Positions 5,777 to 41,210 of a DNA stretch of 64,000 nt are shown one piece after another; the first letter of the stretch is position 1, and every line of letters begins with the position of its first letter. The position numbers were made by a program, and so were the translations under genes. The stretch is from NCBI GenBank assembly GCA_003518365.1, contig DOYU01000021.1:492-64491 (forward strand), read 5' to 3'. This DNA is from Candidatus Magasanikiibacteriota bacterium. Its GTDB lineage: Bacteria; Patescibacteriota; Patescibacteriia; Magasanikbacterales; UBA922. Below the pieces are notes generated by a model. It was not told where the DNA came from and did no database searches. It saw nothing but the letters and a program-made list of their open reading frames with translations.

Positions 5777-6274
5777 CTAGTACAGGTAGCGCACCACCTC
5801 GAACGTCTCAATTGCGCCTGGTTGCGGCGCAATCGGGACGAACGCCGAGATGTGCACGCCACCTTCCAGCCCGTCGACTTGGAAGACGTAGTCTTCCGTG
5901 TCCATGGTGAGGAACGCCCCACCGTAGACACCACCGTCGCCGGTGACGCCGAAGACCTCGATCTCGAAGATCATTCCGGCGTAGACCTGTACGGGGATCT
6001 CGCCGACGAACTCGTACTCGAACAGCGCGATGTCCGGATCGATGGGATCCCAGACCTGTTGCGCAAAGCCTGCCTCGTCCACCACGGTCAGCCGACAGAC
6101 CGAGATGCACTCGACCCACGCCAAGGGCGGGGTGATGGTCTCATCGCTCGGCGTCGTCGTGTCCACCTGCTCGGGGCAGGCGGCCTGGACGGGCGCGAGG
6201 GTGTCGGAGTCGCAGGCGGCGGCGAGGGTCAGGGTCAGGGTCAGGGCGATGGTGGCGACGAAGAAGCTACGCAT
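5777..6274 (-). CDS. secreted lipoprotein, paralog 1 of 3, visibly high GC
   Basis: GGAGG SD 7 nt upstream of the ATG at 6274. Signal peptide MRSFFVATIALTLTLTLAAAC with a lipobox-like Cys. Acidic Gly/Pro-rich mature region. Codons are G/C-rich relative to neighbours. ORF track start at 6433 trimmed. Confidence 0.6.
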   Translation of the reverse strand: MRSFFVATIALTLTLTLAAACDSDTLAPVQAACPEQVDTTTPSDETITPPLAWVECISVCRLTVVDEAGFAQQVWDPIDPDIALFEYEFVGEIPVQVYAGMIFEIEVFGVTGDGGVYGGAFLTMDTEDYVFQVDGLEGGVHISAFVPIAPQPGAIETFEVVRYLY

Positions 6275-6435
6275 CGGAATCCTCCGGTGATGCGGTCTCA
6301 CGATGTACTTTACTACAGCATTTCTGCAGCAAGCACGATCGAATGAACCGCACCACCAACATGTTCTCTTGCATTGTAAAAAGCATGTCAAAAGAGGTAC
6401 TTGTGTCCTATTTTGAACGGCTGAATATAACATAA

Positions 6436-6565
6436 AAACACACTTTTGTCAAGTGTATAACTAAAAAAATTGCCTTATGTTAGCAATTTTCTTCTTTTTT
6501 AGAAGTTTGCAAACAGTCGACGCAGCGCACTCCGAAGAGCGCGCCGCGTCGACCGCGAAGAAAGA
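6436..6565. repeat. Duplicated 3'-flank segment of the lipoprotein cassette, copy a
   Basis: TTTTGTCAAGTGT...AAAAAATTGCCTTATGTTAGCAATTT...GCGCAGCGCACTCCGAAGAGCGCGCCGCGTCG aligns with 7240-7370. Ends in a GC-rich hairpin. Confidence 0.6.
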
Positions 6566-7102
6566 TCAGATGCCGTCTTGCCATCCGGGGTCGTAGACCA
6601 CTTGAATGGTGTACCTGCTCCCAGGTGTCCAGTCGTAGATGGGAAATCTCAGCTTTGGTGAGGTCTCGACACCATCATTGACTCGCAGGAGAAATTTGAA
6701 CATGAGGTTGTGGGACACGAGTTCGAGTGTCACACCGCCATTCATAGGGGGCGCGACCATCAGCTCGACCTCGATCTCTGCACCTTCAAGGAGCTGAAAA
6801 TCGAAGATCTCGTTACTCGCGAGATACTCATCGAGCGTAGGTCCCTCTTCATCACTCACATAGTACTCTCCATGAAAGAACCAAATGGGAGCGACCTCCC
6901 CATCCGGCAGGGTGACCGTCACCTTCCACACACCATTGGCCCAGAGAGAAGCGAAGGCTCCTTCTCCACCATAATGAAAGGTGATGCTTGGCTCAGAGGA
7001 ATCTTCCTCCTGCGGAATTTCCACATCTGGAAGGATGGTGGTGTCACAGCCGCCAGAGCTGTAGACGAAACCGAACAGAGCGAGAAAGATAAGTGCGTGC
7101 AT
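6566..7102 (-). CDS. secreted lipoprotein, paralog 2 of 3
   Basis: MHALIFLALFGFVYSSGGC signal/lipobox with GAGGT SD. Shares ...LDEYLASNEIFDFQLLEGAEIEVELMVAPPMNGG... with paralog 3 (LDGYLAENEFLDFELTEGQTIHVELIESPPENGA). Confidence 0.55.
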   Translation of the reverse strand: MHALIFLALFGFVYSSGGCDTTILPDVEIPQEEDSSEPSITFHYGGEGAFASLWANGVWKVTVTLPDGEVAPIWFFHGEYYVSDEEGPTLDEYLASNEIFDFQLLEGAEIEVELMVAPPMNGGVTLELVSHNLMFKFLLRVNDGVETSPKLRFPIYDWTPGSRYTIQVVYDPGWQDGI

Positions 7103-7239
7103 GAAATACCTCAGTGTGAATGCGACCATTCGTCAACGTACGGGACCACCCCGCACGTAAACGTATCAATCACATCCACATGACGTTGATCTTTCAAACG
7201 TATGATACCATACGTTTGACAGTAAAAAATAGCAGAAAA

Positions 7240-7376
7240 AACAATTTTGTCAAGTGTCCAAATAAAAAATTGCCTCATATTAGCAATTTCAAATATTTTT
7301 CAAAAGTGAAGCGAAGCGGCCGGCGCAGCGCTGCAACTCCGAAGAGTGCGCGCCACGCCGGTCGCAAGGTGAGAGA
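7240..7376. repeat. Duplicated 3'-flank segment of the lipoprotein cassette, copy b
   Basis: ACAATTTTGTCAAGTGTCCAAATAAAAAATTGCCTCATATTAGCAATTT...GCGGCCGGCGCAGCGCTGCAACTCCGAAGAGTGCGCGCCACGCCGGTCGC. Confidence 0.6.
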
Positions 7377-7895
7377 TCAGGAGCAGGTGCCGTCCGGCAC
7401 GAGCTCCACGAAGTAGGCACGAGGTTCACCCACCGATGTGTAGATGGGCAGATAACACGTGGGCACTCCCCGGTTATTCGTGAACTGATACGCCTGTTGA
7501 TGGGAGACCAAGGTCATCTGCTCGGCACCATTCTCTGGTGGAGATTCGATGAGCTCGACATGGATGGTCTGTCCCTCTGTCAGCTCAAAATCCAGGAACT
7601 CATTCTCCGCCAGGTAGCCATCCAGCTTCCCGGCATCTTCATCAAGGACTTCGTACGGTCCAAGAGAGCGCCAAATCGAAGCAGCAGACCCGTCCGGATT
7701 AAGAACGCTGATCTCGCAGGCTCCTCGGCACCAAAAGGTTCCAAAGTTCTTCTCTCCGAGGTCATGCACTACAACTTTTGCGCCGTCTGCCTTCCCGACC
7801 TTTGGTGTGTCGGATATGCCCTCAATGTCCACATCGCAACCACCAATGAAGATGGCGACCAGCGCAAGAATCATGGTGATAATCGTGAGATGCAT
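7377..7895 (-). CDS. secreted lipoprotein, paralog 3 of 3
   Basis: GGAGGA SD upstream of the ATG at 7895. MHLTIITMILALVAIFIGGC signal/lipobox. Homologous to paralog 2. Confidence 0.55.
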   Translation of the reverse strand: MHLTIITMILALVAIFIGGCDVDIEGISDTPKVGKADGAKVVVHDLGEKNFGTFWCRGACEISVLNPDGSAASIWRSLGPYEVLDEDAGKLDGYLAENEFLDFELTEGQTIHVELIESPPENGAEQMTLVSHQQAYQFTNNRGVPTCYLPIYTSVGEPRAYFVELVPDGTCS

Positions 7896-8190
7896 CGCGT
7901 CCTCCATAGAAGTATGAATACGACCATTCGTCAGCGTACGGGACCACCCCGAACACAAACGTATCTGCCGCATCCATACTTCTGTGATCTCTCAAAAATA
8001 TCATATCAAACTAGGAGTATTTTTCCTAGTTTGAATAGATGAAGATAGCGTATTTTGCGACGTTTGTCAATATATTAAATATCTGGCTGTATTGCTTACG
8101 CATGTTTCATTGTCAAATTGTTACATTGTTATATTGTTGATGATATTAAATAGATTGATATATGATAATTGTTATTTGCTATCTGAAATG

Positions 8191-8217
8191 TTAGCACTCT
8201 CTTGACAAGACTGATAA
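8191..8217 (+). promoter_or_regulatory. CIRCE-like inverted repeat (HrcA operator-like) overlapping the clpP -35
   Basis: TTAGCACTC-N9-GACTGATAA against the CIRCE consensus TTAGCACTC-N9-GAGTGCTAA. The left arm is perfect; the right arm matches 7 of 9. Confidence 0.35.
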
Positions 8218-8230
8218 TCTTCTCTATGCT
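8202..8230 (+). promoter_or_regulatory. clpP promoter candidate TTGACA-17-TATGCT
   Basis: -35 at 8202-8207, 17-nt spacer, -10 at 8225-8230. An ACCAGTTACTGGT palindrome at 8260-8272 lies in the 5'UTR. Confidence 0.45.
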
Positions 8231-8284
8231 ATACTTCTTTACATAATCTATTTCTAGTTACCAGTTACTGGTTCCTAGTCCCCT

Positions 8285-8875
8285 ATGTTTATGCATTCTC
8301 AATACCTCATCCCAACCGTCATCGAAAAAACATCACACGGTGAACGTGCATACGATATTTACTCTCGCCTTTTGAAAGATCGCATTATTTTTCTTGGCAG
8401 CGCGATCGATGACGGCGTCGCAAATACCATCATCGCTCAGCTCCTCTTCCTGGCAAATCAAGACGCGGAAAAAGATATCAAACTCTATATCAACTCCCCT
8501 GGTGGATCCGTCACCGCAGGTATGGCCATCTACGACACCATGCAATTTGTAAAACCACATGTTTCGACGATTTGTATCGGCATGGCAGCAAGTATGGGAT
8601 CAGTCCTCCTCGCAGCAGGAGAAAAAGGAAAACGTTTTGTCCTCCCAAATAGTGAAGTGATGATTCATCAAGTCCTCGGTGGGACACAAGGGCAAGCAAG
8701 TGATATTCAGATTCATGCAGAACGCATTGTCAAAATGAAAAAACATCTGAATGAAATTCTTGCAAAACACTGTGGCCAAACATTTGAAAAAGTAGAAAAA
8801 GACGCAGACCGAGATTACTTCATGAGTGCGGAAGAAGCTGTGACATACGGACTTGTGGACAAAGTTATATCGTAG
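8285..8875 (+). CDS. clpP: ATP-dependent Clp protease proteolytic subunit
   Basis: [37 protein letters not shown]...[14 protein letters not shown] (catalytic Ser) ...MIHQVLGG (His). Confidence 0.95.
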
Positions 8876-9175
8876 TTCACGAGTCACTTAACACGTAGCA
8901 CGAAACAATCTTACTCTGAACGGGAGGAAACCTTGCCAGGCAAGACTACGCTTCGCTAAGATTATGTTTCACCTACGGTGAAACAAGATTGAAGATTACT
9001 TCACAAAAAGAAGGACATGCATGATATGCATGTCCTTCTTAGCATGTAACATAATCTTCAATCTTTTTTGCCGTAAGGCAAAAGTAATCTTAGTGGAGCG
9101 AAGCGAAACGCAATCTTACGTTGCACTAGGACACACGTTGTCACATACTATGTGACTCGTGTCTCGTGAACTACG
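8872..9175. repeat. Imperfect palindrome of about 300 nt with nested hairpins; possible MITE-like or structured element
   Basis: Centre is the perfect 15-bp-stem palindrome AAGAAGGACATGCAT-GAT-ATGCATGTCCTTCTT (about 9011-9043). Arms share CGCTTCGCT, AAGATTA and AAGATTGAAGATTA. Arm sub-hairpins differ compensatorily (TTCACCTACGGTGAA vs TTGCCTTACGGCAA). Termini are GTTCACGAG...CTCGTGAAC. Confidence 0.55.
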
Positions 9176-10319
9176 TGAACAAAACAAACACACTATACAC
9201 TGCTCCAACAGTCAACACGAGCAAGAGCAATGCACCAAGGAGTGCGATATGATGCAATTTATATTTTCCAGGATCAAGATCACCCAATTTTTTTGCGCGC
9301 CAATAAATCAGAAGAATGAGCAACATCTCAATACTACCAAACACACCACCGACAATATTGATCGCGGCAACAAATTGTCGAAGACCTAATAAAAAAATGA
9401 TACAAGGAATACCAAGTGTCACCACCGTCGCAATGCGCCCACTCATATGATAATCCCATGACAGTGAATCTTTGAGCGATACACCATTGAGCAAAAAGCT
9501 GGTCGCCATGGCAAAGAATGCAAACGCATTGCCAAACAAAAACAACGTGTGGCCGAGCCTATTGCCAAGGCCTATCGTTGCAATTTCTGTTGTCCCCTGT
9601 CCTGTCACCCCTACAACGACGAGCGCAAATGTCAGATACAGCGCCATGACGAGCAACCCTCCTATGAGGATCGCGCGACGAAATGCTCCGTTATCATCTT
9701 TCAAAAGGGCATGTATCTCAGGCACTGCTGTCGTACCATGGAGAGAAAATAAGACCACACCATAGGGAAGAAAGAGATAGGCAAGATTTGTGGTATAGAG
9801 ATGGGTGATGTCAATATGTGGCACACTCAGTGACGTGATAAACAACACAATCACCAAAATGCCAATGGTGAGAATCAGTTCAGCGGTCTTCACAGTGCGA
9901 AGCCCGAGCATCACAAGGAGTGCTGCGAATACAAAGAACACCAGACTCCACTCTACGCTACTGCCCCCAAAGAGCGCAGCAAGCGTTTCCCCTTCTCCAA
10001 TCAGATAAATCACGAGCGCGCCAAACAGCATGCCATACATCATGACGGTCATGATCATCCCGCCTGCCTTTCCTAAATATTTTTTTGCAAACCCAACGAG
10101 CTGAAACGACCCATGTGTTCTCACTGCGACTTCGCCAAGCATGAGATTCAGTCCGATCATAAGCGCGCCTAAGCCAATAATATAGAGCACCCCAATCAAC
10201 ACACCCGCTTGTGCTACAGCATAGGGCAATCCGAGCACTCCAGCACCGATCGTCCCACTGATCATGAGTGCAACGCCTTCAGCCATAGAAAGTTTGCGTC
10301 GAAAAATTCCTTGATGCAT
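9171..10319 (-). CDS. amino-acid permease (APC/aromatic amino-acid transporter-like)
   Basis: About 11 TM helices. MHQGIFRRKLSMAEGVALMISGTIGAGVLGLPYAVAQAG is typical of TnaB/Mtr/TyrP-like permeases. ORF track start at 10409 trimmed to the Met at 10319. Confidence 0.6.
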   Translation of the reverse strand: MHQGIFRRKLSMAEGVALMISGTIGAGVLGLPYAVAQAGVLIGVLYIIGLGALMIGLNLMLGEVAVRTHGSFQLVGFAKKYLGKAGGMIMTVMMYGMLFGALVIYLIGEGETLAALFGGSSVEWSLVFFVFAALLVMLGLRTVKTAELILTIGILVIVLFITSLSVPHIDITHLYTTNLAYLFLPYGVVLFSLHGTTAVPEIHALLKDDNGAFRRAILIGGLLVMALYLTFALVVVGVTGQGTTEIATIGLGNRLGHTLFLFGNAFAFFAMATSFLLNGVSLKDSLSWDYHMSGRIATVVTLGIPCIIFLLGLRQFVAAINIVGGVFGSIEMLLILLIYWRAKKLGDLDPGKYKLHHIALLGALLLLVLTVGAVYSVFVLFT

Positions 10320-11732: not shown

Positions 11733-14399
11733 TTATGACAACGTATCTACCAATGAGTCTGCCAATCCAATATATTTTTCTGGTGTCAGTGTAAAAAGAA
11801 ATTGTTTGTCTTCTTCAGAAATATCAAGTGTTGCGACAAAATTCCTAATTGTTAGGCTATCAAGTCGTGTTCCCCTACTCAATTCTTTTAATCGTTCATA
11901 CGCATCCTGCTGTCCATACTTTCGCAACATGGTTTGGATTGCTTCGGTAACGATTTCCGGATGTGCCTGCAATTCTTGCACAAGCGCAGACTGATTTGGG
12001 GTAATCGTAGCCATTCCTTTTATCATACTTTTTACTGCCAAGAATGCATGCGCAAGTGCTACGCCTTGATTGCGTATCATTGTGCTTCCGCTAAGATCTC
12101 TTTGCATACGTGAGACTGGCAGATGCGTCGCCAATGTTGTAAACAATCCGTTGGCAAGAGCAATATTGCCTTCAGCATGTTCAAAGTGAATCGGATTTAC
12201 TTTATGCGGCATGGTACTTGATCCAACATGTTCTTTCTCTACCATTTGTCCAAACATTCCTCGACTAATATAGAGCCACATGTCTCGCGCCAGATCGAGA
12301 AGGATGGTATTTATACGAGAAACAATCTGATAACTTTCTGCAAGTGAATCATATGTATTGACTTGCGTCGTGAGCAGTAATTGTTCAAAGCCAAGGCTTG
12401 CAAGAAATGATTTGTGAAATCGAGGCCAGTCCACGTGCGCATCGAGTATCTGGTGTGCAGCAAACGTTCCTGTTGCCCCACTGCACTTTGCATCAAATGT
12501 CATGTTTGTAAGATTCGCACGCTGCTTTTTCAGTCTCTCTACAAAGACGGCAATTTCTTTCCCGACCGTAGTGGGTGTTGCCGCTTGTCCATGCGTGAGG
12601 GCAAGCATGGGGAGTCTCGCATGTGTCTTTGCAAATGTGGTTAGTGTGCTCATCAATCTATCAAGCGTTGGAACAAAGACCGTGCTCAGTGAATCACGCC
12701 AGAGTGACAGATATGCAATGTTATTGATATCTTCTGATGTCAGTGCGATATGAATAAAGGGAATTGCATGTGAAAGACCAAGCAATGGCAATCGTTCTTG
12801 CAAAAATATTTCAACGGCTTTTACATCATGATGAATCCTTTTTTCAATCTGTTTTACACGCGCAGCATCTTCGAGAGAAAACAATGTTGAAATGTTTCTA
12901 AGCTGCTCTTTTTGTATGTCTGAAAACGAAACCAACGCCGTGAAGGTTGTTTCTTCTGCGAGTGCAATAAGATATGCAATTTCAATATGCACACGAGAGC
13001 GAATCAATGCGTATTCTGAATGATATGCTGCAAGTTCTTGGACTTGTTCATAATATCGTCCGTCGATTGGGGAAATAGCAGTCAATGCGTTGTCAGCACC
13101 TTCTGCAAGATGTGAAGACAACACAACGGTTTCTGAACGCTTTGGACCAAATGACACAATACCGATCGGACACCCGACTTCTTTTTCTATGAAAGAGAGA
13201 TATGTCTGCACTGCAGGGTCAAATCCTTGCATCGTTGTTGGCATCTCGCCTGTGTACACCTGTTGCCATCCAGAGAGCGTGGTGTACACGGGCTGCGCCT
13301 TTCGCATGTCAGACAAACTTGCCGGCATTTCGTGAACAAGTTTTCCATCAATATAATACGCCGTACATACCTTCAATTCATCAAATCCATTCAAGACATC
13401 GAGCTTTGTAATTGCAATTTCAGTGAGTGGATGTACGCGGGCACTTTGCCTTACTTGCACCAAATCAAGCCAACCAATGCGACGCGCTCTCCCTGTCGTT
13501 GTCCCATATTCTTGTCCAAGTTCGCGGATACGGTCCCCGACCGAATCAGTCAATTCTGTCACAAACGGACTTGTCCCGACACGACTAACGTATGCTTTTA
13601 CCACACCGACAATCCGCTTTGGCGCATTGATGCCAAGTCCACTTCCGACTTCTGCGTGCGCTGCGACATTGTTTGAACTTGTCGTATGTGGATACAATCC
13701 ATGATCAGGATCGAGTGACATTCCTTGTGCTCCTTCAAAAAGGATACGTTTCCCTGCTGTATACGCGTGTGCGAGTTCCACTTCGGTATCAGCAATATAT
13801 TGTTTGAGTTGTTGTCCGTATGCAAGATATTGATTCGTGATTTCTTCTTTTGAAGATTGGAAGGTGCCACGAAGAACATTGGTAATCATGCCCACGTTGA
13901 AATCATACGCTTTGTCCAATTTTTCTCGAAACAGCTCTGGCTCGAGCAAATCGCCCATACGAATTCCATGGCGATACATTTTATCTGCATAGACCGGGGC
14001 AATACCACGCTTGGTGCTTCCGGCAGCGAGCGCACCCTGATGCCCAGAGAGTGCTTCATCCATGGCAATGTGATACGGCATGATGACATGCGCGCGTTCG
14101 CTGATAGCAAGTTTCAGTGGTCTACCGTTTTTTGTGATTTCTGCGATTTCTCCGAGAAGCACGCTGGGATCAATGACAACGCCATTTCCTATCACAGAAT
14201 GGGTGTGTTCAGATACCACGCCACAGGGCAACAGATGCAATTTGTATGTTTGTTCTCCAACGACAATCGTATGCCCAGCATTATTTCCTCCGTGAAATCG
14301 AACAACATACTCTGCATCACTCGCAAGCACATCTGTGATTTTTCCTTTCCCCTCATCCCCCCATTGAGCACCCACGACAACGGTTGTTTGTGGTTTCAT
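11733..14399 (-). CDS. purA-purB: bifunctional adenylosuccinate synthetase / adenylosuccinate lyase fusion (PurA-PurB)
   Basis: N-terminal half MKPQTTVVVGAQWGDEGKGKITD...GGNNAGHT...GTTTGRARR is PurA. After a short linker (VLSSHLAEGADNA), LTAISPIDGRYYEQVQEL...THGQAATPTTVGKE...RDLSGSTMIRN...LTPEKYIGLA is PurB. The track shows one uninterrupted 888-aa ORF. Confidence 0.8.
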   Translation of the reverse strand: MKPQTTVVVGAQWGDEGKGKITDVLASDAEYVVRFHGGNNAGHTIVVGEQTYKLHLLPCGVVSEHTHSVIGNGVVIDPSVLLGEIAEITKNGRPLKLAISERAHVIMPYHIAMDEALSGHQGALAAGSTKRGIAPVYADKMYRHGIRMGDLLEPELFREKLDKAYDFNVGMITNVLRGTFQSSKEEITNQYLAYGQQLKQYIADTEVELAHAYTAGKRILFEGAQGMSLDPDHGLYPHTTSSNNVAAHAEVGSGLGINAPKRIVGVVKAYVSRVGTSPFVTELTDSVGDRIRELGQEYGTTTGRARRIGWLDLVQVRQSARVHPLTEIAITKLDVLNGFDELKVCTAYYIDGKLVHEMPASLSDMRKAQPVYTTLSGWQQVYTGEMPTTMQGFDPAVQTYLSFIEKEVGCPIGIVSFGPKRSETVVLSSHLAEGADNALTAISPIDGRYYEQVQELAAYHSEYALIRSRVHIEIAYLIALAEETTFTALVSFSDIQKEQLRNISTLFSLEDAARVKQIEKRIHHDVKAVEIFLQERLPLLGLSHAIPFIHIALTSEDINNIAYLSLWRDSLSTVFVPTLDRLMSTLTTFAKTHARLPMLALTHGQAATPTTVGKEIAVFVERLKKQRANLTNMTFDAKCSGATGTFAAHQILDAHVDWPRFHKSFLASLGFEQLLLTTQVNTYDSLAESYQIVSRINTILLDLARDMWLYISRGMFGQMVEKEHVGSSTMPHKVNPIHFEHAEGNIALANGLFTTLATHLPVSRMQRDLSGSTMIRNQGVALAHAFLAVKSMIKGMATITPNQSALVQELQAHPEIVTEAIQTMLRKYGQQDAYERLKELSRGTRLDSLTIRNFVATLDISEEDKQFLFTLTPEKYIGLADSLVDTLS

Positions 14400-14470
14400 A
14401 CTATTGCTAATTTACGTTGAACAGTGTCTCCAATATCTGCGTAATCATTTTATAATCAGTGTAATCCATG

Positions 14471-15913
14471 CTAGGTGATAGGATTGACATCATGCACACC
14501 ACTTTCTCGCGAACCAGCGCTGGTGATGCGCACAAATGTTACGTTTTCTTGCAGCTCGGCGATCGTGTGTGCATTGGTGTAGCTCATACCCGAGCGAAGC
14601 CCCCCAACAAGCTGATACACAATATCTGCCACCACACCTTTGTATGGCACGATTGACTCTACGCCTTCTGGCACCACGTGCGATAGTTCTTTTTGTTCTT
14701 GTCCTTTTTGCTGGCGTTTTTGCGCCTGAGTAAAGCTGGCACTACCGCGAGATATTTTGAATTTTTTATCCCCTTTTGTCATCACGACGCCCGGACTTTC
14801 TGCCGTGCCTGCAAACATACTGCCAATCATCACTGTGTCCGCGCCTGCGCCAATTGCTTTCACAATATCACCAGACGTTTTGATGCCACCGTCTGCGATC
14901 ACCGGAACGCCGTATGTTTTTGCCACTTTTGCGACTTCACTCACGGCAGTGAGCTGTGGCATGCCGCAACCGGTGACCAAACGAGTAATACAAATTGATC
15001 CAGGACCCACGCCAACTTTCAATGCATCAACACCTGCGTCACACAAATCTTTTGCCGCCTGCGCAGTTGCGATATTTCCGGCGATGAGTGGGGTGCCTGG
15101 CACGGCTTGTTTTAATGCTGCAATGGCATTGATCATGAGATCAGAGTGTCCGTGCGCGATATCAATCACGAGAACATCTGCGCCCGCTGTCACAACAGCT
15201 TTTGCTCGCTCGACAAAATCCCCATGCACGCCCACGGCAGCACCGACAATCAATCGTCCGTCTGTATCAAGATTTGCATCAGGAAAATCTACACTAAGTT
15301 TCATATCATCACTCGTAATAAGTCCGATAATGGTATTTTCTTCATCAACAAGTGGAAGTTTTTCTATTTTATGCCGTGCAAATATTGCTCGTGCATCTTC
15401 AAATGTTGTTTCTTTATTTCCAACAACAAGTTTTTCTCTTGGCGTCATAATCTGTGATACACGTGTATCACCATTTGGTGCATAGAGAAAATCTCGTCGT
15501 GATAAAATGCCAAGCAATTTTTTATCCGGACTTGCGACGAGCAGACCGGTGATGCCAATATCTGCGACATATTCTTTTGCAGAGGCAACGGTTTGATCTT
15601 GTTCTATGGTATAGGGATCTTCAATAATAAAATTTTGTGCGCGTTTTACACGCTTTACTTCTTCAACATTTTCTTCAATCGTATTGAAACGATGCAATAT
15701 ACCAATACCACCGAGGCGTGCCATGGCAATCGCCATGTCTGATCCTGTCACAGAATCCATGTTTGCTGTGACAATAGGTATGTTGATATCAAGCTGACGC
15801 GTCAATCTTGTTTTTGTCTGTGCATCGCTGCGAGAACTCAATGTAGAACGACGTGGGACGATGAGAACATCATCGTATGTGAGGGCAAATGGGATCTGCA
15901 TAGCAAAAGGCAT
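14471..15913 (-). CDS. guaB: IMP dehydrogenase
   Basis: ALTYDDVLIVPRRS..., two CBS domains, GSICITRLVTGCGMPQ catalytic loop, ...GGIKTSGDIVKAIGAGAD. ORF track start at 16012 trimmed to MPFAMQIPF at 15913. Confidence 0.9.
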   Translation of the reverse strand: MPFAMQIPFALTYDDVLIVPRRSTLSSRSDAQTKTRLTRQLDINIPIVTANMDSVTGSDMAIAMARLGGIGILHRFNTIEENVEEVKRVKRAQNFIIEDPYTIEQDQTVASAKEYVADIGITGLLVASPDKKLLGILSRRDFLYAPNGDTRVSQIMTPREKLVVGNKETTFEDARAIFARHKIEKLPLVDEENTIIGLITSDDMKLSVDFPDANLDTDGRLIVGAAVGVHGDFVERAKAVVTAGADVLVIDIAHGHSDLMINAIAALKQAVPGTPLIAGNIATAQAAKDLCDAGVDALKVGVGPGSICITRLVTGCGMPQLTAVSEVAKVAKTYGVPVIADGGIKTSGDIVKAIGAGADTVMIGSMFAGTAESPGVVMTKGDKKFKISRGSASFTQAQKRQQKGQEQKELSHVVPEGVESIVPYKGVVADIVYQLVGGLRSGMSYTNAHTIAELQENVTFVRITSAGSRESGVHDVNPIT

Positions 15914-16097
15914 AAAAAAACCACCAATTGGCGGCGTGTATACTAAAACGACATCTGCATGAATCCTCCTGTGTAGGATCGTGATTTCTTCATAGCAGAA
16001 GTATCGTAGCATGTTTCTTTTTTGTGGGCAAATACTCGACGAGAAAAGTTATCCGCAGTATACTGATGTGCAGAGCAGCCACAAAAGGAGGTCGCTC

Positions 16098-21410: not shown

Positions 21411-21482
21411 TGGGCGCATCGTATAGTGGTAGTACATTGGTCTCCAAAACCAATTGCGTGGGTTCGATTCCTACTGCGCCTG
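21411..21482 (+). tRNA. trnW: tRNA-Trp (anticodon CCA)
   Basis: Manual cloverleaf: acceptor GGGCGCA/TGCGCCT, anticodon stem TTGGT/ACCAA, loop CTCCAAA, T-loop TTCGATT. No encoded 3' CCA. Confidence 0.8.
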
Positions 21483-21973: not shown

Positions 21974-22176
21974 GTCAAATCGATTTAATCGTTATTCATA
22001 TCCAGCCCCAAGCTGAATTTTGAAGTATCGTTCCAAGTGCGTCTCACAACGCATGCTAACAAGATAAGACTTACCCTAGTCTTATTTTTTTTACCAAAAA
22101 TTGGATAATGTTTCTATAATAATATACTATATATGATAATCAAGAATATATTATTCAAGATTAATAGATATAGATT

Positions 22177-22827
22177 ATGTATAGAAAAGGAGAAGTCATA
22201 GGTGTCGGGAATGACAAACGCATATATGCTGACGCAATAACTCCTGAGACAAGAGTTATTGCTGAATTTCGCAAGGAACAAACACCTGAAGAAATAAAGA
22301 GTGTGTACTATCTTGGGAACATAGCTCATATATTATTCCCTCAAAATGTACCCAAAGTATATGAAGCAGGGATGCATCCACAAGAACATACGAAAGTAGA
22401 AAGAAAAAAGGTGGATGTCAATCATAAAAATACGGCTGATCTCATGGTGACATACGAAGATTATTTCATGGGAGATGGTGAAACGGGACCTTCTTCAGAA
22501 GAAGATAGTGAGATGGATGTAGATATAGAAAAAAAAGAAACCGATCCAAGAGTAAAACAACTTTTAACAAAAGCGTCTTCTGTCGGATTATATTTTGATA
22601 CAGGCGGACAAAATTTTTCTTTTGACGATTTGGGTACTGTCCAATATCTTGAAGTGAATCCAGCATTTCATATAGAAAAAAACCACGTCCGTTTGCACTT
22701 CAACGAAAGCAAATTAAGAGATGCCATACAAGCATTAGAAAATGAAAAAGAGAAAAAAAAGGCTACACTATATTTCGAACGATTGATGTCTTTGATCCAA
22801 GTAGCACAAAATAATCTTATACAATAG
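22177..22827 (+). CDS. hypothetical protein (216 aa), no recognisable family
   Basis: Complete ORF followed by the terminator at 22917-22946. Acidic middle segment (SSEEDSEMDVDIEKKETD). Confidence 0.4.
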   Translation: MYRKGEVIGVGNDKRIYADAITPETRVIAEFRKEQTPEEIKSVYYLGNIAHILFPQNVPKVYEAGMHPQEHTKVERKKVDVNHKNTADLMVTYEDYFMGDGETGPSSEEDSEMDVDIEKKETDPRVKQLLTKASSVGLYFDTGGQNFSFDDLGTVQYLEVNPAFHIEKNHVRLHFNESKLRDAIQALENEKEKKKATLYFERLMSLIQVAQNNLIQ

Positions 22828-22916
22828 TTCCAACTTCCTCCTTCCTCTACGATCCCCTGCACCTCCTGCAGTAGCTCCTGCCGGCAGGCAGGTTAGCGAA
22901 GGCACGGCACTTGAAA

Positions 22917-22946
22917 AACAGAGTGAAAAACACTCTGTTTTTCTTT
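22917..22946 (+). terminator. Rho-independent terminator
   Basis: AACAGAGTG-AAAAA-CACTCTGTT perfect 9-bp stem followed by TTTTCTTTTT. Confidence 0.7.
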
Positions 22947-22975
22947 TTGACATGAAGGGAAGAACGGAGTATTGT
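22947..22975 (+). promoter_or_regulatory. promoter candidate for the defence operon (TTGACA-17-TATTGT)
   Basis: -35 at 22947-22952, -10 at 22970-22975, directly after the terminator and 28 nt before the XRE gene ATG. Confidence 0.4.
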
Positions 22976-23002
22976 ACAAGTAAACATATACATTATATTG
23001 GT

Positions 23003-23212
23003 ATGGCTCATCAAAAAAATACAATCGGAAAAAACATCAAACGATTACGGCAAGAACAAAAAATTTCCCAAGATCGTCTTTCAAAACTTGCGGATCTTTC
23101 TTTGAATACTATTGTTACCGTTGAAAGTGGCGCAAACGAAAATCCTACTATTGATACGCTCACAAGGATTGCGAAAGCGTTTCAAGTTGGCGTGGATGAC
23201 CTCATAACATAA
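23003..23212 (+). CDS. XRE-family helix-turn-helix transcriptional regulator (69 aa)
   Basis: MAHQKNTIGKNIKRLRQEQKISQDRLSKLADLSLNTIVTVESGANENPTIDTLTRIAKAF is a classic HTH_3. ORF track start at 22952 trimmed. Its size and position resemble R-M controller (C) proteins. Confidence 0.8.
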   Translation: MAHQKNTIGKNIKRLRQEQKISQDRLSKLADLSLNTIVTVESGANENPTIDTLTRIAKAFQVGVDDLIT

Positions 23213-23220
23213 CACCCACT

Positions 23221-24198
23221 ATGTCTAAACAAACACCTACCAATAATCTCGCTATCTACCAAGCTAAAAACGGCGCGATTGAATTTCGCGGTGATTTTGA
23301 GCAAGAGACGGTTTGGGGAAATTTAAATCAAATTGCCGATCTTTTTGGTCGCGACAAGTCCGTTGTTTCCCGCCATATAAAAAACATCTATAAAACAGGC
23401 GAATTAAACGAAACGGCAACTGTTGCAAAAATTGCAACAGTTCAAAAGGAAGGAAGGAGAGAAGTGATGCGTGAAATTGAGTACTTCAACCTTGATGTTA
23501 TTTTGTCCGTTGGGTACAGAGTAGATTCCAAGCAAGCCACGCAATTCCGCAAATGGTCAACGCAAGCGCTCAAGGCACACCTTGTAGACGGGTATACCAT
23601 CAACAAAAAACGCATCGGTAATAACTACGAACACTTTTTGCGTGCAGTGGCAGAAACAAAAGCACTCCTCCCTGTGGGCAACAAGGTTTCTACCGAGGAT
23701 ATACTTGAACTCGTGAACGCATTTGCTGCTACGTGGTTTTCGCTCGATGCATATGACAAAGACGCATTTCCTCAAAAAACAGCCTCAAAAAAGTCAGTTT
23801 CAGTTGACACTGTAAAGCTACTCAATGCGATTGGTGAGTTGAAGCAAGAACTGATAACCAAAAAGCAAGCAACAAACCTATTTGCACAAGAAAGGAAGAC
23901 GGGAACAGTAGAAGGAATCGTCGGAAATGTATTTCAGTCTGCCTTTGGCAAAGATGTATATCCAAGTATAGAAGAAAAGGCCGCACACATCCTCTACTTC
24001 ATGGTAAAAAATCATCCATTCACCGATGGCAACAAGCGCAGCGGAGCCTTTGCATTTGTTTGGTTTCTACGAAAAGCTGGTTTACTCCGACCAAGTCTTA
24101 CTCCAGAAGCGTTGACTGCCATTACCCTCCTCATTGCAGAGAGTAATCCAAAAGATAAAGACAAAATGGTGGGACTAGTGGTGATGTTAATCAAATAA
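23221..24198 (+). CDS. RhuM-family / Fic-DOC-like protein
   Basis: N-terminal NLAIYQAKNGAIEFRGDFEQETVW...KIATVQKEGRREVMREIEYFNLDVILSVGYRV is the RhuM signature. C-terminal HPFTDGNKRSGAF matches the Fic/Doc motif HxFx(D/E)GNxR. Confidence 0.7.
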   Translation: MSKQTPTNNLAIYQAKNGAIEFRGDFEQETVWGNLNQIADLFGRDKSVVSRHIKNIYKTGELNETATVAKIATVQKEGRREVMREIEYFNLDVILSVGYRVDSKQATQFRKWSTQALKAHLVDGYTINKKRIGNNYEHFLRAVAETKALLPVGNKVSTEDILELVNAFAATWFSLDAYDKDAFPQKTASKKSVSVDTVKLLNAIGELKQELITKKQATNLFAQERKTGTVEGIVGNVFQSAFGKDVYPSIEEKAAHILYFMVKNHPFTDGNKRSGAFAFVWFLRKAGLLRPSLTPEALTAITLLIAESNPKDKDKMVGLVVMLIK

Positions 24199-24200
24199 CT

Positions 24201-25322
24201 ATGGCAAATAAAAACCTTACAAAAGCAAAAAAGGCAAAAAATGATGAATTTTATACTCAATTTTCAGATATTCAAAAAGAAGTTGAGTCTTATCTTGAGT
24301 ATAACCCAGATACTTTTAAAGATAAGATAATTTACAGTAATTGTGACGACCCGTTCGAAAGTAATTTCTTTCGCTATTTTGTATTAAATTTTGATCGTTT
24401 AGGACTAAAGAGACTTATTTCAACGAGCTACAAACCCTCACCTGTTGCCAATACGCAACTGGGATTATTTGGCGATGACAAAACACTTGAAAAAGTAAAA
24501 GGCCGTCCAAAAGTAACCGCTAACAAATTCATCATCAACGAAGTTGGCGATATCGACGGCGACGGCTCTTTTACGCTAGAAGATATTGCCCAACAGCTTC
24601 GAGCGAATAAAAATAACGAATGGACTCCGCTTGAGGGCGATGGTGATTTTAGAAGTGCCGAATGTGTCGAGTTGCTCAAACAATCTGACATCGTAGTTAC
24701 TAATCCTCCATTTAGTTTATTCCGTGAATATATTACGCAACTTTTCGAACACAAAAAGCAATTTCTAATTATTGGTAGCATGAACTCAATTACTTACAAA
24801 GAAATCTTTGTGTTGATTAAAAATAATAAATTGTGGTTAGGTAATGGGTTTAATGCTGGCAATGCATATTTTTCAACTCCCAATGCGCGAAAAGATTTTG
24901 CTTCTGGTGTGTATGATGAAAAAACTGGTCTTGTAAAATTTCGGAATTGTCATTGGTTTACTAATTTAGATCATGGTCGTCGTCATCAGCCTCTTAATCT
25001 GATGACAACAAATGAAAACCTAAGATTTAATAAAAAAATGCAAGGCAAAACTACTTATGATCGTTATGACAATTATGACGCTATTGATGTACCATTTACA
25101 AAAGCTATCCCTTCTGACTACGAAGGAGTAATGGGTGTTCCTATAAGCTTTCTCGATAAGTACAATCCTAATCAGTTTGAGATATTGGGCTCTGACACAG
25201 ACATAAAAGAAGGTAAACTTCCACTTTTAATAATAAGTAAATGGAATGGAAAGCTAGACAGAGGTTATATACATGGAAAGAGAATCTTCAGTAGAATGTT
25301 TATTAAGCACAAAAAGAAATAA
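24201..25322 (+). CDS. N6-adenine DNA methyltransferase, M.EcoRI-like family
   Basis: Collinear with my recollection of M.EcoRI: [17 protein letters not shown]..., [48 protein letters not shown] (NPPF catalytic motif IV), [39 protein letters not shown]. Low GC. Confidence 0.8.
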
Positions 25323-25323
25323 T

Positions 25324-26487
25324 ATGAAAACAACCTTAAAAAATGATATCACCGTTAAAGAAGTTTGCGACGGCTTTGAATACAACGAATTTGAAGGAAA
25401 AGGTTTGTTTGGTCTCTCTGGCAAACTAACTATTCAGCCAGAGTATCAGCGTAATTATATTTATGCTGACGGCAAACGTGACGTTGCTGTAATTGACTCA
25501 ATTTTAAAGGGTTATCCTATCGGTTTGATCTATTTCAATCAGGCTGGTAAAGACGAGTTTGAAGTATTAGATGGTCAACAGCGCATCACGAGTATAGGTC
25601 GTTTTGTTACTGGCAAATTTGCTGTTAAAGATAAAAACGGTCACGAGCAATACTACAGCGGTATGTCTGAGAGTCAGCGTGAGCAAATTATGAAGACTAA
25701 GTTGTTGGTGTATGTGTGCGAAGGTGACGAGCCTGAGATCAAAGATTGGTTCAAGACTATTAACATTGCTGGAGTGCCATTAACTGAACAAGAGATTCTT
25801 AACGCGGTATATTCTGGGCCATTCGTTACTCGAGCTCGTGAAGAGTTTAGTAATAGTCAAAATACCAACATCCAGAAATGGAGTGCGTACATCGCAGGTG
25901 ATATCAAGCGTCAGGCATACTTGGAACGAGCTCTAGATTGGGTTTCTGATGGATCAATCGATAGTTATATGAGCAAACACCGCAATGACAAAAATATTAC
26001 TGAACTAAAAAAACATTTTGATACTATCATTGACTGGGTCTCAACTATCTTTACTGACGTTGAGAGCGATATGAAAGGCCTTGAGTGGAACAGGATTTAT
26101 GAGACATATCACAAGAAGAAATACAATCCGACTACCATCTCTGCTTCTGTTCAGAAGCTCTATGCTGATGGTTTCGTAAAAAGTCGCAAAGGCATTTTTG
26201 AATATGTTTTAGGCGGAGAAGTTGAAACTAAACTACTTGAAATACGAGTATTTGAGGACTCAACAAAACGTTCAGTTTACGAAGCTCAAACTGCTATTGC
26301 AAAGAAAAAAGGTGTTTCAAACTGTCCACATTGTGCTATTGGGCATGATGCCAATAAAGAAAAAATTTGGACTTTAAGCGATATGGATGCTGATCATGTG
26401 GCTGCTTGGAGTAAAGGTGGAAAAACGGAAGCAAAAAACTGTGAGATGTTGTGTAAAACGCATAATCGTGCCAAAGGTAATCGGTAA
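25324..26487 (+). CDS. DUF262 (ParB-like) plus C-terminal HNH nuclease, GmrSD-like
   Basis: [13 protein letters not shown] (DGQQR motif of DUF262). C-terminal CPHCAIGHD...[32 protein letters not shown] is an HNH motif. Its ATG lies 1 nt after the methyltransferase stop. Confidence 0.75.
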
Positions 26488-26493
26488 AATATT

Positions 26494-27987
26494 ATGCACC
26501 TCACAAAAACCGACTATCTCGAATATACCTTTTGCAAAAAGAACCTTTGGCTCAAAAAACATAAGCCAGAGCTTTTTGAAGATGTAGAATTGTCGGAATT
26601 TGAAAAAAAAATTATTGAGGAAGGGAATTTGGCTGATGAGGCTGCAAGAAATTTATTTCCTGATGGAGAATTGATCGGTATCGTCGGAGTAAATGCTATA
26701 CCTGTTACAAAAAAGATACTGGAGAAAAACCCACCAGTATTATTTCAAGGTGCATTTTCATTCAATGACTTTTTTGTTCAAGCGGATATTTTACGTTACA
26801 ACGACATTTTAAAGGGTTGGGAACTTTACGAAGTAAAAGCAACAAATGATGTAAAACGAGAAATCCCTCATCACCATATCAACGACCTTGCGTTTCAAAA
26901 AATTGTAATTGAACAAAATGGGATACACATTATAAAAGCAGGCGTTATTCACCTTAACGGCGAATATAGACAACGAGGCAAAGTAAACTATAACGAACTG
27001 TTCATCATTGCCGAGCTTACTGATGAAGTACTAGAAGCGGAAGAACTTGTACGTGGGCAGATGCGTGATATTCACACATATATGGACATGGCAGAAGAAA
27101 AAAATTGTGAATGTTTGTATCGAGGTAGAAATGCACAATGTACAACGTTCGCTTACTCTAATCCTGAAGTGCCTGAATACTCTGTTCACGATATCAATAG
27201 AATTGGCGGAAGCAAAAAACTGTTTTTTGACTGGATAGATAGAGGGATCTACCGGCTCGAAGATATAGATAACCCAGAAAATCTTACAGGATCAAAAAAG
27301 GCACAATATACTGCGTACATAACAGGTAAGCCTCTCATAGACAAAGAAGCAATACAAAAAGAACTTGGTGAATTGGTTTTTCCTCTCCAATTTTTTGATT
27401 ACGAAGGATATTCTAGTGCTATCCCCAGCTTTAACGGCTTCGGTGCGTATGAACAAGTGCCTTTTCAATATTCACTACATACGCTCCATGAAGACGGAAC
27501 GCTTGAACACCGAGAATATCTCATCACAGAGCCAGAGAATGATTTGACTTTGCCATTGGTAGAAAGAATGAAAGAAGACTTTGATGATGTTGGTACTGTC
27601 ATATCTTGGTACAAATCATACGAATCACAACGAAACGACAAACTAGCAGAACTTCATCCAAATCATGCAGACTTTCTTATTGGCCTCAATGACAGAATGT
27701 TTGACCTCATGACAATGTTTTCCAAAAATTATTATGTGGATGCACGGTTCAAAGGGAGTGCAAGCATAAAAAATGTTCTGCCGGTCATTGTACCGGAATT
27801 AACGTACAAAGTACTTGGTATTCAAAAAGGAGATCAAGCAGTAGAACGTTGGGAAAAAATGATATTTGCAGATATTCATCCAGATGAAAAGAAAGAAATA
27901 AAAAAAGATTTGCTTGAGTATTGCAAATTGGATACTTTGGCGATGGTGAGGATTTGGGAGTTTCTAATGAAAATAAAAAATGTATGA
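26494..27987 (+). CDS. DUF2779-family protein (PD-(D/E)xK RecB/Cas4-like N-terminal nuclease-like domain)
   Basis: N-terminal LTKTDYLEYTFCKKNLWLKKHKPEL and central FDYEGYSSAIPSFNGFGAYEQVPFQYSLH match DUF2779 hallmarks from memory. D...QADIL...YEVKAT is a D/ExK-like motif. Its stop overlaps the SIR2 start (ATGA). Confidence 0.6.
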   Translation: MHLTKTDYLEYTFCKKNLWLKKHKPELFEDVELSEFEKKIIEEGNLADEAARNLFPDGELIGIVGVNAIPVTKKILEKNPPVLFQGAFSFNDFFVQADILRYNDILKGWELYEVKATNDVKREIPHHHINDLAFQKIVIEQNGIHIIKAGVIHLNGEYRQRGKVNYNELFIIAELTDEVLEAEELVRGQMRDIHTYMDMAEEKNCECLYRGRNAQCTTFAYSNPEVPEYSVHDINRIGGSKKLFFDWIDRGIYRLEDIDNPENLTGSKKAQYTAYITGKPLIDKEAIQKELGELVFPLQFFDYEGYSSAIPSFNGFGAYEQVPFQYSLHTLHEDGTLEHREYLITEPENDLTLPLVERMKEDFDDVGTVISWYKSYESQRNDKLAELHPNHADFLIGLNDRMFDLMTMFSKNYYVDARFKGSASIKNVLPVIVPELTYKVLGIQKGDQAVERWEKMIFADIHPDEKKEIKKDLLEYCKLDTLAMVRIWEFLMKIKNV

Positions 27988-29219: not shown

Positions 29220-29220
29220 C

Positions 29221-30999: not shown

Positions 31000-31010
31000 T
31001 TATTAAACAT

Positions 31011-41067: not shown

Positions 41068-41083
41068 CAATTTATTTCAACAA

Positions 41084-41160
41084 AAAAGCCACTCACTTCC
41101 CCCCTGTACTGATGCTGAGAATCTCAGAAGCAATACAGGATGTGTGAGTGGCTTTTGTTG
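41084..41160. terminator. Bidirectional rho-independent terminator with nested stems
   Basis: AAAAGCCACTCAC...GTGAGTGGCTTTT 13-bp outer stem, inner CCTGTA/TACAGG and CTGAGA-AT-TCTCAG. Flanked by an A-tract and a T-tract between convergent genes. Confidence 0.65.
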
Positions 41161-41210
41161 TACCGCCCACGCATCCCGTTGTCAGGGTTGGGGCGTGGGT
41201 GGAGCAGAGG

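What the first reader, a model, noticed from the sequence alone, without database searches (positions are those of the whole stretch)
11733..14399. PurA-PurB fused into one 888-aa ORF, in an operon with guaB
The N-terminal 430 aa carry adenylosuccinate synthetase motifs (GDEGKGK, GGNNAGHT, GTTTGRARR). After a short linker, the C-terminal 450 aa carry adenylosuccinate lyase motifs (ISPIDGRY, THGQAATPTTVGKE, LTPEKYIG). The fusion joins the two consecutive IMP-to-AMP steps. IMP dehydrogenase (IMP to XMP) lies immediately upstream on the same strand. I know of no described fusion of these two enzymes. In a reduced genome it would channel the toxic or labile adenylosuccinate intermediate in purine salvage.
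Basis: partly seen in the sequence, partly recalled or inferred. Interest (0 to 1): 0.55.

Follow-up and report, generated by a model that had tools for sequence, protein, structure and literature searches.

The report
Natural PurA–PurB fusion enzyme, Magasanikbacteria
A groundwater CPR bacterium (Candidatus Magasanikbacteria) encodes the two enzymes that turn IMP into AMP as one 888-residue protein; the fusion is genuine, arose from neighbouring genes by loss of a stop codon, has arisen independently in other microbial lineages, and is sitting unrecognised in databases, but it is built from two ordinary, well-known enzymes.

Summary
**Observation confirmed.** Window 11733–14399 (−) is one 888-aa ORF: full-length adenylosuccinate synthetase (res. 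1–427), an 11-residue junction, and full-length E. coli-type adenylosuccinate lyase (439–888). IMP dehydrogenase lies 71 nt upstream.

**It is not an artefact.**
- The identical protein is called on 16 contigs from several assemblies.
- Two other Magasanikbacteria species from another site (78–79% identity) have the same single ORF, with the same junction length.
- Both halves are under strong purifying selection (dN/dS 0.06–0.13).
- All catalytic residues are conserved.

**Origin.** Sister species have adjacent, separate purA and purB (in one, `TAA ATG`). The fused species form one clade in both half-trees, so this was an in-situ fusion by stop-codon loss.

**Distribution.** PurA/PurB fusions in both orders, some with added HAD or Ham1 domains, occur in Woesearchaeota, Microgenomates and a gut Firmicute. 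All are labelled as only one of the two enzymes.

**Novelty.** Seven literature searches, NCBIfam and the PDB gave no description, so this is a new architectural variant of known enzymes.

**Not shown.** Channelling, the oligomeric state and a salvage-only lifestyle are untested, and other Magasanikbacteria carry de novo purL/purM.

Interest is moderate.

The parts
11733..14399 (-). Whole purA-purB fusion ORF: 888 codons plus the stop at 11733-11735
   Evidence: One search shows a single ORF. Searches show both enzyme families at full length. One search finds the identical protein on 16 contigs.
13119..14399 (-). PurA (adenylosuccinate synthetase) domain, residues 1-427
   Evidence: Pfam PF00709 covers residues 7-425 (model 1-416 of 416). 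NCBIfam PRK01117 scores 528 bits against a cutoff of 402. It aligns to E. coli 1ADE over residues 6-428. D15, K18, N40, H43, T129, R143, Q225, R304, R306 and D334 correspond to E. coli D13, K16, N38, H41, T129, R143, Q224, R303, R305 and D333. AF2 confidence is high.
13086..13118 (-). Junction or linker, residues 428-438 (SSHLAEGADNA). It occupies the place of the purA stop codon and the purB start codon of sister species.
   Evidence: Junction comparison with unfused loci. The length is identical in L005 and L006 but the sequence is free. Residues 430-433 are the only segment with pLDDT below 50. No conserved internal start codon or SD motif is present.
11736..13085 (-). PurB (adenylosuccinate lyase, E. 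coli type with ASL_C) domain, residues 439-888
   Evidence: Pfam PF00206 covers 447-743 and PF08328 covers 763-877. NCBIfam PRK09285 scores 568 bits against a cutoff of 446. It aligns to E. coli 2PTS residues 5-455. H524, H603, S727, K733 and E740 correspond to E. coli H91, H171, S295, K301 and E308, and the GSSTMPHKVNP loop is intact.
14400..14470 (-). 71-nt guaB-purAB spacer
   Evidence: Sequence read. No promoter-like or terminator-like site lies in it, but the scan as a whole did not exceed the shuffled expectation, so this is uninformative.
14471..15913 (-). guaB (IMP dehydrogenase with a CBS pair). 480 aa from the likely start; a 513-aa reading would start at 16012.
   Evidence: TIGR01302 scores 507 bits against a cutoff of 481.5, and PF00478 plus CBS domains match. 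One assembly calls the 480-aa form. guaB lies directly upstream of purA in L006, L009-L012, L014, L016, L020 and L030.

Best explanation
This is a genuine, evolutionarily maintained gene fusion that encodes a bifunctional adenylosuccinate synthetase / adenylosuccinate lyase.

**Reactions (by homology)**
- The N-terminal PurA domain converts IMP + L-aspartate + GTP to adenylosuccinate + GDP + Pi. The catalytic base is D15 and the acid is H43.
- The C-terminal PurB domain cleaves adenylosuccinate to AMP + fumarate. The base is S727 in the GSSTMPHKVNP loop and the acid is H603.

**Origin (shown)**
The fusion arose in situ within one sub-clade of Candidatus Magasanikbacteria, from an ancestral guaB-purA-purB gene cluster. 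The purA stop codon, the short spacer and the purB start codon were converted into an 11-residue sense junction.

**Shown here**
- A single ORF.
- Both domains full-length with intact catalytic residues.
- Conservation of the fused state across three species under purifying selection.
- Origin from adjacent genes.
- Conserved linkage to guaB.

**Inferred**
- Both activities are present in one polypeptide.
- The benefit is obligatory 1:1 co-expression and co-localisation of the two steps of the AMP branch from IMP.
- The PurB tetramer probably acts as a scaffold that brings PurA domains together. PurA needs a dimer because R143 of the partner subunit completes the IMP site; this point comes from established E. 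coli enzymology recalled from memory.

Substrate channelling is possible but untested.
For: **The ORF is real and complete**
- Single ORF.
- Full-length equivalog matches for both enzymes, above the curated cutoffs.
- Residue-by-residue alignment to E. coli and other solved PurA and PurB structures at E about 1e-110 to 1e-120.
- All checked catalytic and ligand-binding residues are conserved.
- The AF2 model has mean pLDDT 90.6, and only junction residues 430-433 fall below 50.

**Not an artefact**
- The identical protein is on 16 contigs, including three NCBI bins and ENA assemblies of other samples.
- The fused ORF is also present in two other species from Crystal Geyser at 78-79% identity (L005, L006).

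**Maintained by selection**
- dN/dS is 0.06-0.10 for the PurA half and 0.11-0.13 for the PurB half, with dS above 1.
- The junction length is invariant while its sequence is free.

**Origin**
- Sister Magasanikbacteria have adjacent separate genes. In L008 the junction is 'TAA ATG'. In L007 a single in-frame TAG is followed by 14 codons. In L009 and L012 the two genes overlap.
- The fused species are monophyletic and nested among the unfused ones in both the PurA and PurB trees.

**guaB linkage**
- Conserved in at least ten loci.
- Re-created independently in a reverse-order fusion operon, purBA-nudix-guaB.
Against: - There is no protein-level, transcript or activity evidence.
- pTM is 0.61, so the relative position of the two domains is undefined. 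Whether a dimeric PurA and a tetrameric PurB can both assemble through an 11-residue junction is unknown.
- The trees are NJ without bootstrap support.
- dS is saturated, so the dN/dS values are approximate.
- The operon claim rests on conserved adjacency only, because the promoter/terminator scan was uninformative.
- A close relative by its flanking genes (L010) has an unfused purA plus a HAD-PurB instead. The fused state is therefore not indispensable at this locus.
Confidence: 0.85

Rival explanations
1. Assembly or sequencing artefact: two adjacent genes were joined because a stop codon was lost or an indel was introduced at the junction.
For: Sister species have separate adjacent genes. 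In two of them (L007, L008) the genes are in the same frame with only one stop codon between them, so a single-base error could in principle mimic a fusion.
Against: The identical 888-aa protein is called on 16 contigs from different samples and assemblers. Two other species from a different site, diverged to dS above 1, have the same uninterrupted ORF with the same junction length. The junction is not the stop-plus-start sequence of the sisters with one base changed; it is a different 11-codon sense stretch with no ATG.
Confidence: 0.02
2. The ORF is fused but the cell still makes two separate proteins, either by internal translation initiation for PurB near the junction or by proteolytic cleavage of the linker.
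For: The window has an in-frame TTG at codon 439 with an AAGG 12-15 nt upstream. The linker is the only low-confidence, presumably flexible, segment.
Against: Codon 439 is CTG in L005 and TTA in L006, and the AAGG is not conserved. Genes of this genome show no obvious SD motifs in any case. Even with internal initiation, the full-length fusion would still be made because there is no stop codon. The junction length is conserved, which suggests it is constrained as part of one chain.
Confidence: 0.07
3. One half is no longer an enzyme of the AMP branch. It could be a regulatory pseudo-enzyme, or have a changed specificity such as PurZ-like or another lyase-1 activity.
For: None specific. TIGR00928 (the generic purB model) scores 322.1, just under its cutoff of 326.2.
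Against: The E. coli-type PurB equivalog scores 568 against a cutoff of 446. PurZ scores 126 against 300. All other lyase-1 families score far below their cutoffs. Every catalytic and substrate-binding residue checked is conserved. Both halves have dN/dS of at most 0.13.
Confidence: 0.04

Closest known systems
Stand-alone E. coli PurA (PDB 1ADE) and PurB (PDB 2PTS)
   Same: Both halves align end to end with these enzymes at E about 1e-109 and 1e-112. The catalytic residues are identical and the domain composition is the same, including the ASL_C C-terminal domain of the E. coli-type lyase.
   Different: Here the two are one polypeptide joined by 11 residues. No PDB chain spans both enzymes.
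Adjacent but separate purA and purB genes of sister Magasanikbacteria (for example L008, L007, L009, L012)
   Same: The gene order guaB-purA-purB and the orientation are the same. Identity is 64-67% for PurA and 51-55% for PurB. They are the nearest relatives of both halves in the trees.
   Different: A stop codon and a start codon (TAA ATG in L008), or overlapping frames, separate the two genes.
Unannotated PurB-PurA fusions in public data: Woesearchaeota (P0013 and the P0007 cluster), Microgenomates (P0005), Coprobacillus sp. CAG:698 (P0062 cluster), and the P0008 lineage
   Same: They join the same two enzymes in one ORF. P0008 is also linked to guaB.
   Different: The domain order is reversed. 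Some add a C-terminal HAD phosphatase or an N-terminal Ham1/ITPase domain. The Firmicute type uses the other PurB subfamily (ADSL_C). They fall in separate clades, so their origins are independent.
Independent same-order PurA-PurB fusions (P0002, 875 aa; P0028 and P0031)
   Same: The order is PurA then PurB, joined by a short 9-12-residue junction.
   Different: They are only 33-45% identical to the window protein and branch away from the Magasanikbacteria clade, with different genomic neighbours.
Classical multifunctional purine enzymes (trifunctional GART, PAICS, ATIC/PurH)
   Same: They follow the same principle: consecutive or related purine-pathway steps fused into one chain (review PMC10912719).
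   Different: Those fusions involve de novo steps 2/3/5, 6/7 and 9/10. That review lists no fusion of the IMP-to-AMP steps.

Membership tests
Adenylosuccinate synthetase (PurA, EC 6.3.4.4) | Full-length match to curated equivalog models above their cutoffs | tested here: met
   NF002223 scores 527.7 against 402. TIGR00184 scores 460 against 395.55. PF00709 covers model positions 1-416 of 416.
Adenylosuccinate synthetase (PurA, EC 6.3.4.4) | P-loop GDEGKGK; catalytic Asp13 and His41; IMP and aspartate ligands (N38, T129, R143, Q224, R303, R305); guanine-specificity Asp333 (E. coli numbering) | tested here: met
   All are conserved: D15, H43, N40, T129, R143, Q225, R304, R306, D334.
Adenylosuccinate synthetase (PurA, EC 6.3.4.4) | Homodimer formation and GTP-dependent synthesis of adenylosuccinate | not testable with these tools
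   This needs the purified protein. Only a monomer model was made.
Adenylosuccinate lyase (PurB, EC 4.3.2.2), E. coli type | Full-length match to the equivalog model, and Lyase_1 plus ASL_C domain composition | tested here: met
   NF006764 scores 568.3 against 446, covering model positions 4-455 of 456. PF00206 and PF08328 both match. The generic TIGR00928 model scores 322.1 against 326.2, marginally under its cutoff.
Adenylosuccinate lyase (PurB, EC 4.3.2.2), E. coli type | Catalytic His171 (acid), Ser295 in the GSSxMPxKxNP signature loop (base), and His91 (E. coli numbering) | tested here: met
   H603, S727 (within GSSTMPHKVNP 726-736) and H524 are conserved. K733 and E740 are also conserved.
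Adenylosuccinate lyase (PurB, EC 4.3.2.2), E. coli type | Homotetramer with composite active sites; cleavage of adenylosuccinate (and SAICAR) | not testable with these tools
   No oligomer modelling or assay is available here.
Natural bifunctional fusion enzyme (as opposed to an annotation or assembly artefact) | Uninterrupted ORF reproduced in independent assemblies and in orthologues of other species | tested here: met
   16 contigs carry the identical protein. L005 and L006 are fused at 78-79% identity.
Natural bifunctional fusion enzyme (as opposed to an annotation or assembly artefact) | Both halves under purifying selection after the fusion | tested here: met
   dN/dS is 0.06-0.10 for PurA and 0.11-0.13 for PurB across the three fused species.
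Natural bifunctional fusion enzyme (as opposed to an annotation or assembly artefact) | Single polypeptide actually produced; intermediate channelled between the active sites | not testable with these tools
   There is no proteomic or kinetic data. No conserved internal start codon was found.
PurZ (2-aminoadenylosuccinate synthase of Z-genome phages), considered and rejected | Score above the NF038379 cutoff | tested here: not met
   It scores 125.6 bits against a cutoff of 300.
   None is present in the 64-kb window. However, many other Magasanikbacteria have purL and purM next to purA. A PurM search found no hit named for this species among the top 120, but that list saturated at 59-72% identity.

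The most novel reading that the evidence does not exclude
PurA/PurB fusion may be a convergent adaptation, with at least four to six independent events in both domain orders and two PurB subfamilies. It would arise in lineages where PurB has been freed from its second job in de novo synthesis (SAICAR cleavage). In that situation the AMP branch can be hard-wired as one protein, in which the PurB tetramer scaffolds PurA dimerisation and channels adenylosuccinate. Recurrent attachment of nucleotide-cleaning domains (HAD phosphatase, Ham1/ITPase, neighbouring Nudix) and linkage to guaB would then mark a previously unrecognised 'purine interconversion module' of ultra-small symbionts.
Probability: 0.2. 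Interest if true: 0.55.

Novelty: new variant of a known kind. Interest (0 to 1): 0.4.

Why it matters
**Annotation.** This protein and dozens of similar ones in CPR, DPANN and gut Firmicutes are named as only one of the two enzymes. Metabolic reconstructions that rely on those names will wrongly score the other step as missing.

**Evolution.** The locus preserves the 'before' state (`TAA ATG`) and the 'after' state in sister species, making it a clean example of operon-to-fusion evolution. It adds the IMP-to-AMP branch to the list of purine steps that nature has fused.

**Structure and enzymology.** Joining an obligate dimer to an obligate tetramer through about 11 residues, in either order, raises a concrete question about the quaternary structure. 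It also gives a ready-made natural construct for testing adenylosuccinate channelling.

Neither enzyme's chemistry is new.

Tried and rejected
- **Promoter/terminator scan of 9-17 kb.** Counts equal the shuffled expectation, so it cannot support or refute co-transcription with guaB.
- **Rfam and tRNA scans.** Nothing relevant to the locus.
- **Seven full-text literature searches and four paper look-ups.** No description of a natural PurA-PurB fusion. The library lacks most subscription journals, so absence is not proof.
- **P0143 and P0200 from the representative search.** They looked like fusions (multiple matched stretches) but are tandem PurB-PurB proteins. P0080 has a truncated PurA and no ASL_C domain.
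- **Internal-start hypothesis for PurB (TTG439 plus AAGG).** Not conserved in the orthologues.
- **PurZ or another lyase-1 identity.** Rejected on scores.
- **Test for de novo purine genes in this species via a PurM search.** Inconclusive, because the top-120 list saturates with 59-72% hits from many phyla.
- **Limits of the GTDB scan.** It used query-specific peptide patterns. It is a good census of close relatives but not of distant fusions. In the 50%-identity representative library the query's own clade is hidden inside another cluster, so fusion counts from it are lower bounds.
- **AF2 monomer model.** It gives no usable inter-domain geometry (pTM 0.61), so no fold search was run.
Full report

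Yes. The window has one uninterrupted ORF at 11733..14399 on the minus strand, 888 codons with an ATG start.

- Pfam places a complete Adenylsucc_synt domain at residues 7-425 (model positions 1-416 of 416, E 5e-159). Lyase_1 follows at 447-743 and ASL_C at 763-877.
- NCBIfam equivalog models for both enzymes are matched end to end and above their curated cutoffs. PurA PRK01117 covers residues 5-430 at 528 bits (cutoff 402). PurB PRK09285 covers residues 437-887 at 568 bits (cutoff 446).
- IMP dehydrogenase (TIGR01302, 507 bits) lies 71 nt upstream on the same strand.
- No second purA or purB exists in the window.

**2. Are both halves intact enzymes?**

The halves align over their whole length to solved PurA and PurB structures. 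These include E. coli 1ADE (E 5e-109) and 2PTS (E 3e-112). No PDB chain spans both enzymes.

Mapping through those alignments, E. coli numbering to fusion numbering:

- PurA: D13/K16/N38/H41/T129/R143/Q224/R303/R305/D333 correspond to D15/K18/N40/H43/T129/R143/Q225/R304/R306/D334.
- PurB: H91/H171/S295/K301/E308 correspond to H524/H603/S727/K733/E740, within an intact GSSTMPHKVNP loop.

PurZ (126 bits against a cutoff of 300) and the other lyase-1 families score far below their cutoffs.

An AlphaFold2 model built from a 50-sequence alignment has mean pLDDT 90.6. The only stretch below 50 is residues 430-433, in the junction. The pTM of 0.61 shows that the mutual orientation of the two bodies is not defined.

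**3. Is it an artefact?**

No.

- The exact 888-aa protein is called on 16 contigs. These include the NCBI bins GCA_000998635.1 and GCA_001000125.1 and ENA assemblies of other samples, with the longest contig at 508 kb.
- The organism is a Candidatus Magasanikbacteria (CPR/Patescibacteria) bacterium.
- Two other Magasanikbacteria species from a different site (L005, L006; 78-79% identity) have the same single ORF.
- Across the three species dS exceeds 1. dN/dS is 0.06-0.10 for the PurA half and 0.11-0.13 for the PurB half.
- The junction keeps exactly the same length while its sequence drifts freely: SSHLAEGADNA, ASIVSEKKEKE and TSVSSENKEKE.
- A possible internal start for PurB (TTG439 with an upstream AAGG) is not conserved. 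The codon is CTG in L005 and TTA in L006.

**4. Where did it come from?**

The next-closest Magasanikbacteria (L007-L009, L011, L012, L014, L021) carry purA and purB as separate, adjacent genes.

- In L008 the boundary is literally 'TAA ATG'.
- In L007 a single in-frame TAG is followed by 14 codons before the purB ATG.
- In L009 and L012 the two genes overlap out of frame.

In NJ trees of each half, the three fused species form one clade nested among these unfused relatives (no bootstrap). The simplest reading is one in-situ fusion, in which the stop codon, the short spacer and the start codon became an 11-residue junction.

guaB sits directly upstream of purA in L006, L009-L012, L014, L016, L020 and L030. 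So guaB-purA(-purB) is an ancestral cluster covering both exits from IMP. Co-transcription itself is inferred only from this conservation, because the promoter/terminator scan was no better than shuffles.

**5. How common is it?**

Rare, but recurrent and unrecognised. Among proteins retrieved by two database searches, about 25 carry both halves.

- *Same order, PurA then PurB:* P0002 (875 aa, 44-45% identity) and P0028/P0031. Both branch elsewhere in the trees.
- *Reverse order, PurB then PurA:*
  - CPR Microgenomates (P0005).
  - DPANN Woesearchaeota (P0013 cluster).
  - A lineage with a 1.05-Mb contig (P0008), where the gene sits in a purBA-nudix-guaB operon.
- *With extra domains:* Woesearchaeota also have PurB-PurA-HAD triple fusions (P0007 cluster, 29 contigs). 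One protein adds an N-terminal Ham1 domain (P0012).
- *Other PurB subfamily:* A gut Firmicute (Coprobacillus sp. CAG:698; P0062 cluster, 144 members) fuses the ADSL_C-type PurB to PurA.

Opposite orders and different PurB subfamilies cannot descend from one event. Together with the in-situ origin shown here, that makes at least four independent fusions.

Every source name found calls these proteins only 'adenylosuccinate synthase' or only 'adenylosuccinate lyase'. NCBIfam has no bifunctional model. Seven literature searches found no description. A 2024 review of purine-pathway organisation lists the GART, PAICS and ATIC fusions but none for the AMP branch.

**6. How it most likely works**

- *By homology:* the N-domain makes adenylosuccinate from IMP, aspartate and GTP, and the C-domain cleaves it to AMP and fumarate.
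- *Inferred:* the fusion enforces 1:1 expression and proximity of the two steps.
- *From E. coli enzymology (my recollection):* PurA is active as a dimer, with R143 contributed across the interface, and PurB is active as a tetramer with composite sites. A PurB tetramer core displaying four PurA domains that pair up is therefore a plausible architecture. It would also favour PurA dimerisation.
- *Not shown:* none of this quaternary picture is demonstrated, and neither is channelling.

**7. The salvage / reduced-genome context**

The host is a CPR bacterium, and the 64-kb window has no other purine gene. Even so, the 'salvage-only' premise is not safe.

- Many other Magasanikbacteria-labelled genomes carry purL and purM immediately downstream of purA. 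PurA-PurL and PurA-PurM fusions also exist among relatives (P0014, P0017).
- None of the loci with adjacent or fused purA-purB shows purL or purM nearby. That is suggestive of two lifestyles but is not a genome-wide test.
- A PurM search could not resolve whether this species has the gene.
- The fusions in the Firmicute and the Woesearchaeote stand alone, away from any pur operon.

**8. Verdict**

It is unproven about why the fusion exists, and wrong if taken to imply uniqueness.

This is a new architectural variant of two well-known enzymes. It has a clear evolutionary origin and convergent counterparts, and it is currently mis-annotated across databases. Interest is moderate. It offers a tidy case of operon-to-fusion evolution, a concrete structural question, and a practical annotation fix, but no new chemistry.

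Noticed in passing
L010 (MNVD01000013.1) 5992-9442; corresponds to window 11733-14399: A species whose flanking genes are as close to the window as those of the fused species (guaB 92%, ClpP 95%, AKR 88%, CAP 74%). It nevertheless has a separate purA that is only 67% identical, and a 717-aa HAD-phosphatase-PurB fusion whose PurB is only 37% identical and groups with a DPANN-type clade. This looks like a cassette replacement at the guaB|purA-purB|CAP locus, with PurB fused to a different partner.
   Followed up: partly
L015, L019, L024-L029, L031-L034, L036-L049, downstream of purA: Many Magasanikbacteria- and Marinimicrobia-labelled MAGs have purA followed directly by purL and purM. PurA-PurL (P0014, 1242 aa) and PurA-PurM-like (P0017-P0023, about 783 aa) single-ORF fusions also exist. 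De novo purine genes are therefore present in part of this CPR phylum. The PurM of L031 is 60-61% identical to Legionella PurM.
   Followed up: partly
P0003, P0004, P0007, P0009, P0011 (1209-1296 aa); P0012 (1374 aa); L085 8001-12563: Nucleotide 'house-cleaning' domains repeatedly join the PurB-PurA fusion. Woesearchaeota add a C-terminal HAD phosphatase. One protein adds an N-terminal Ham1/ITPase domain. In one bacterial lineage a Nudix gene lies between purBA and guaB.
   Followed up: partly
P0143 (777 aa), P0200 (956 aa): Proteins made of two tandem adenylosuccinate-lyase-like halves (PurB-PurB) turned up in the representative search.
   Followed up: no
window about 22000-31000: A low-GC island (33-39% against about 45% elsewhere), next to tRNA-Trp at 21412. 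It encodes RhuM/Fic, an EcoRI-like methylase, DUF2779, and a SIR2_2 protein followed by a HerA/DUF87 ATPase, which looks like a SIR2-HerA-type defence island. Its content differs between assemblies of the same species.
   Followed up: no
window 14471-16012: The guaB ORF can be read as 513 aa from an upstream ATG. The IMPDH domain starts at residue 43, and one public assembly aa (start at 15913). A terminator-like hairpin lies at 15920-15935, inside the putative N-terminal extension.
   Followed up: partly
L008, L013, L015, L021, L022, L024 (record titles): Several TPA MAGs titled 'uncultured Gammaproteobacteria bacterium' carry Magasanikbacteria-type purA at 62-66% identity, and L008 and L021 also carry the matching purB. 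Several 'Neomarinimicrobiota' MAGs do the same for purA. Either the labels or bins are wrong, or purA has moved between these groups.
   Followed up: no
L057, L058 (mouse-gut 'uncultured Clostridia' MGBC MAGs): purA and purB are adjacent and overlap by about 20 nt in different frames. They match the window protein over its full length at 40-45% identity. This is an unfused purA-purB pair outside the CPR with the same gene order.
   Followed up: no
window 6001-8000 and 40001-42000: Two 2-kb bins have noticeably higher GC (0.525 and 0.512) than their surroundings. They have no rRNA or other Rfam hit, and they hold only small or unannotated ORFs.
   Followed up: no
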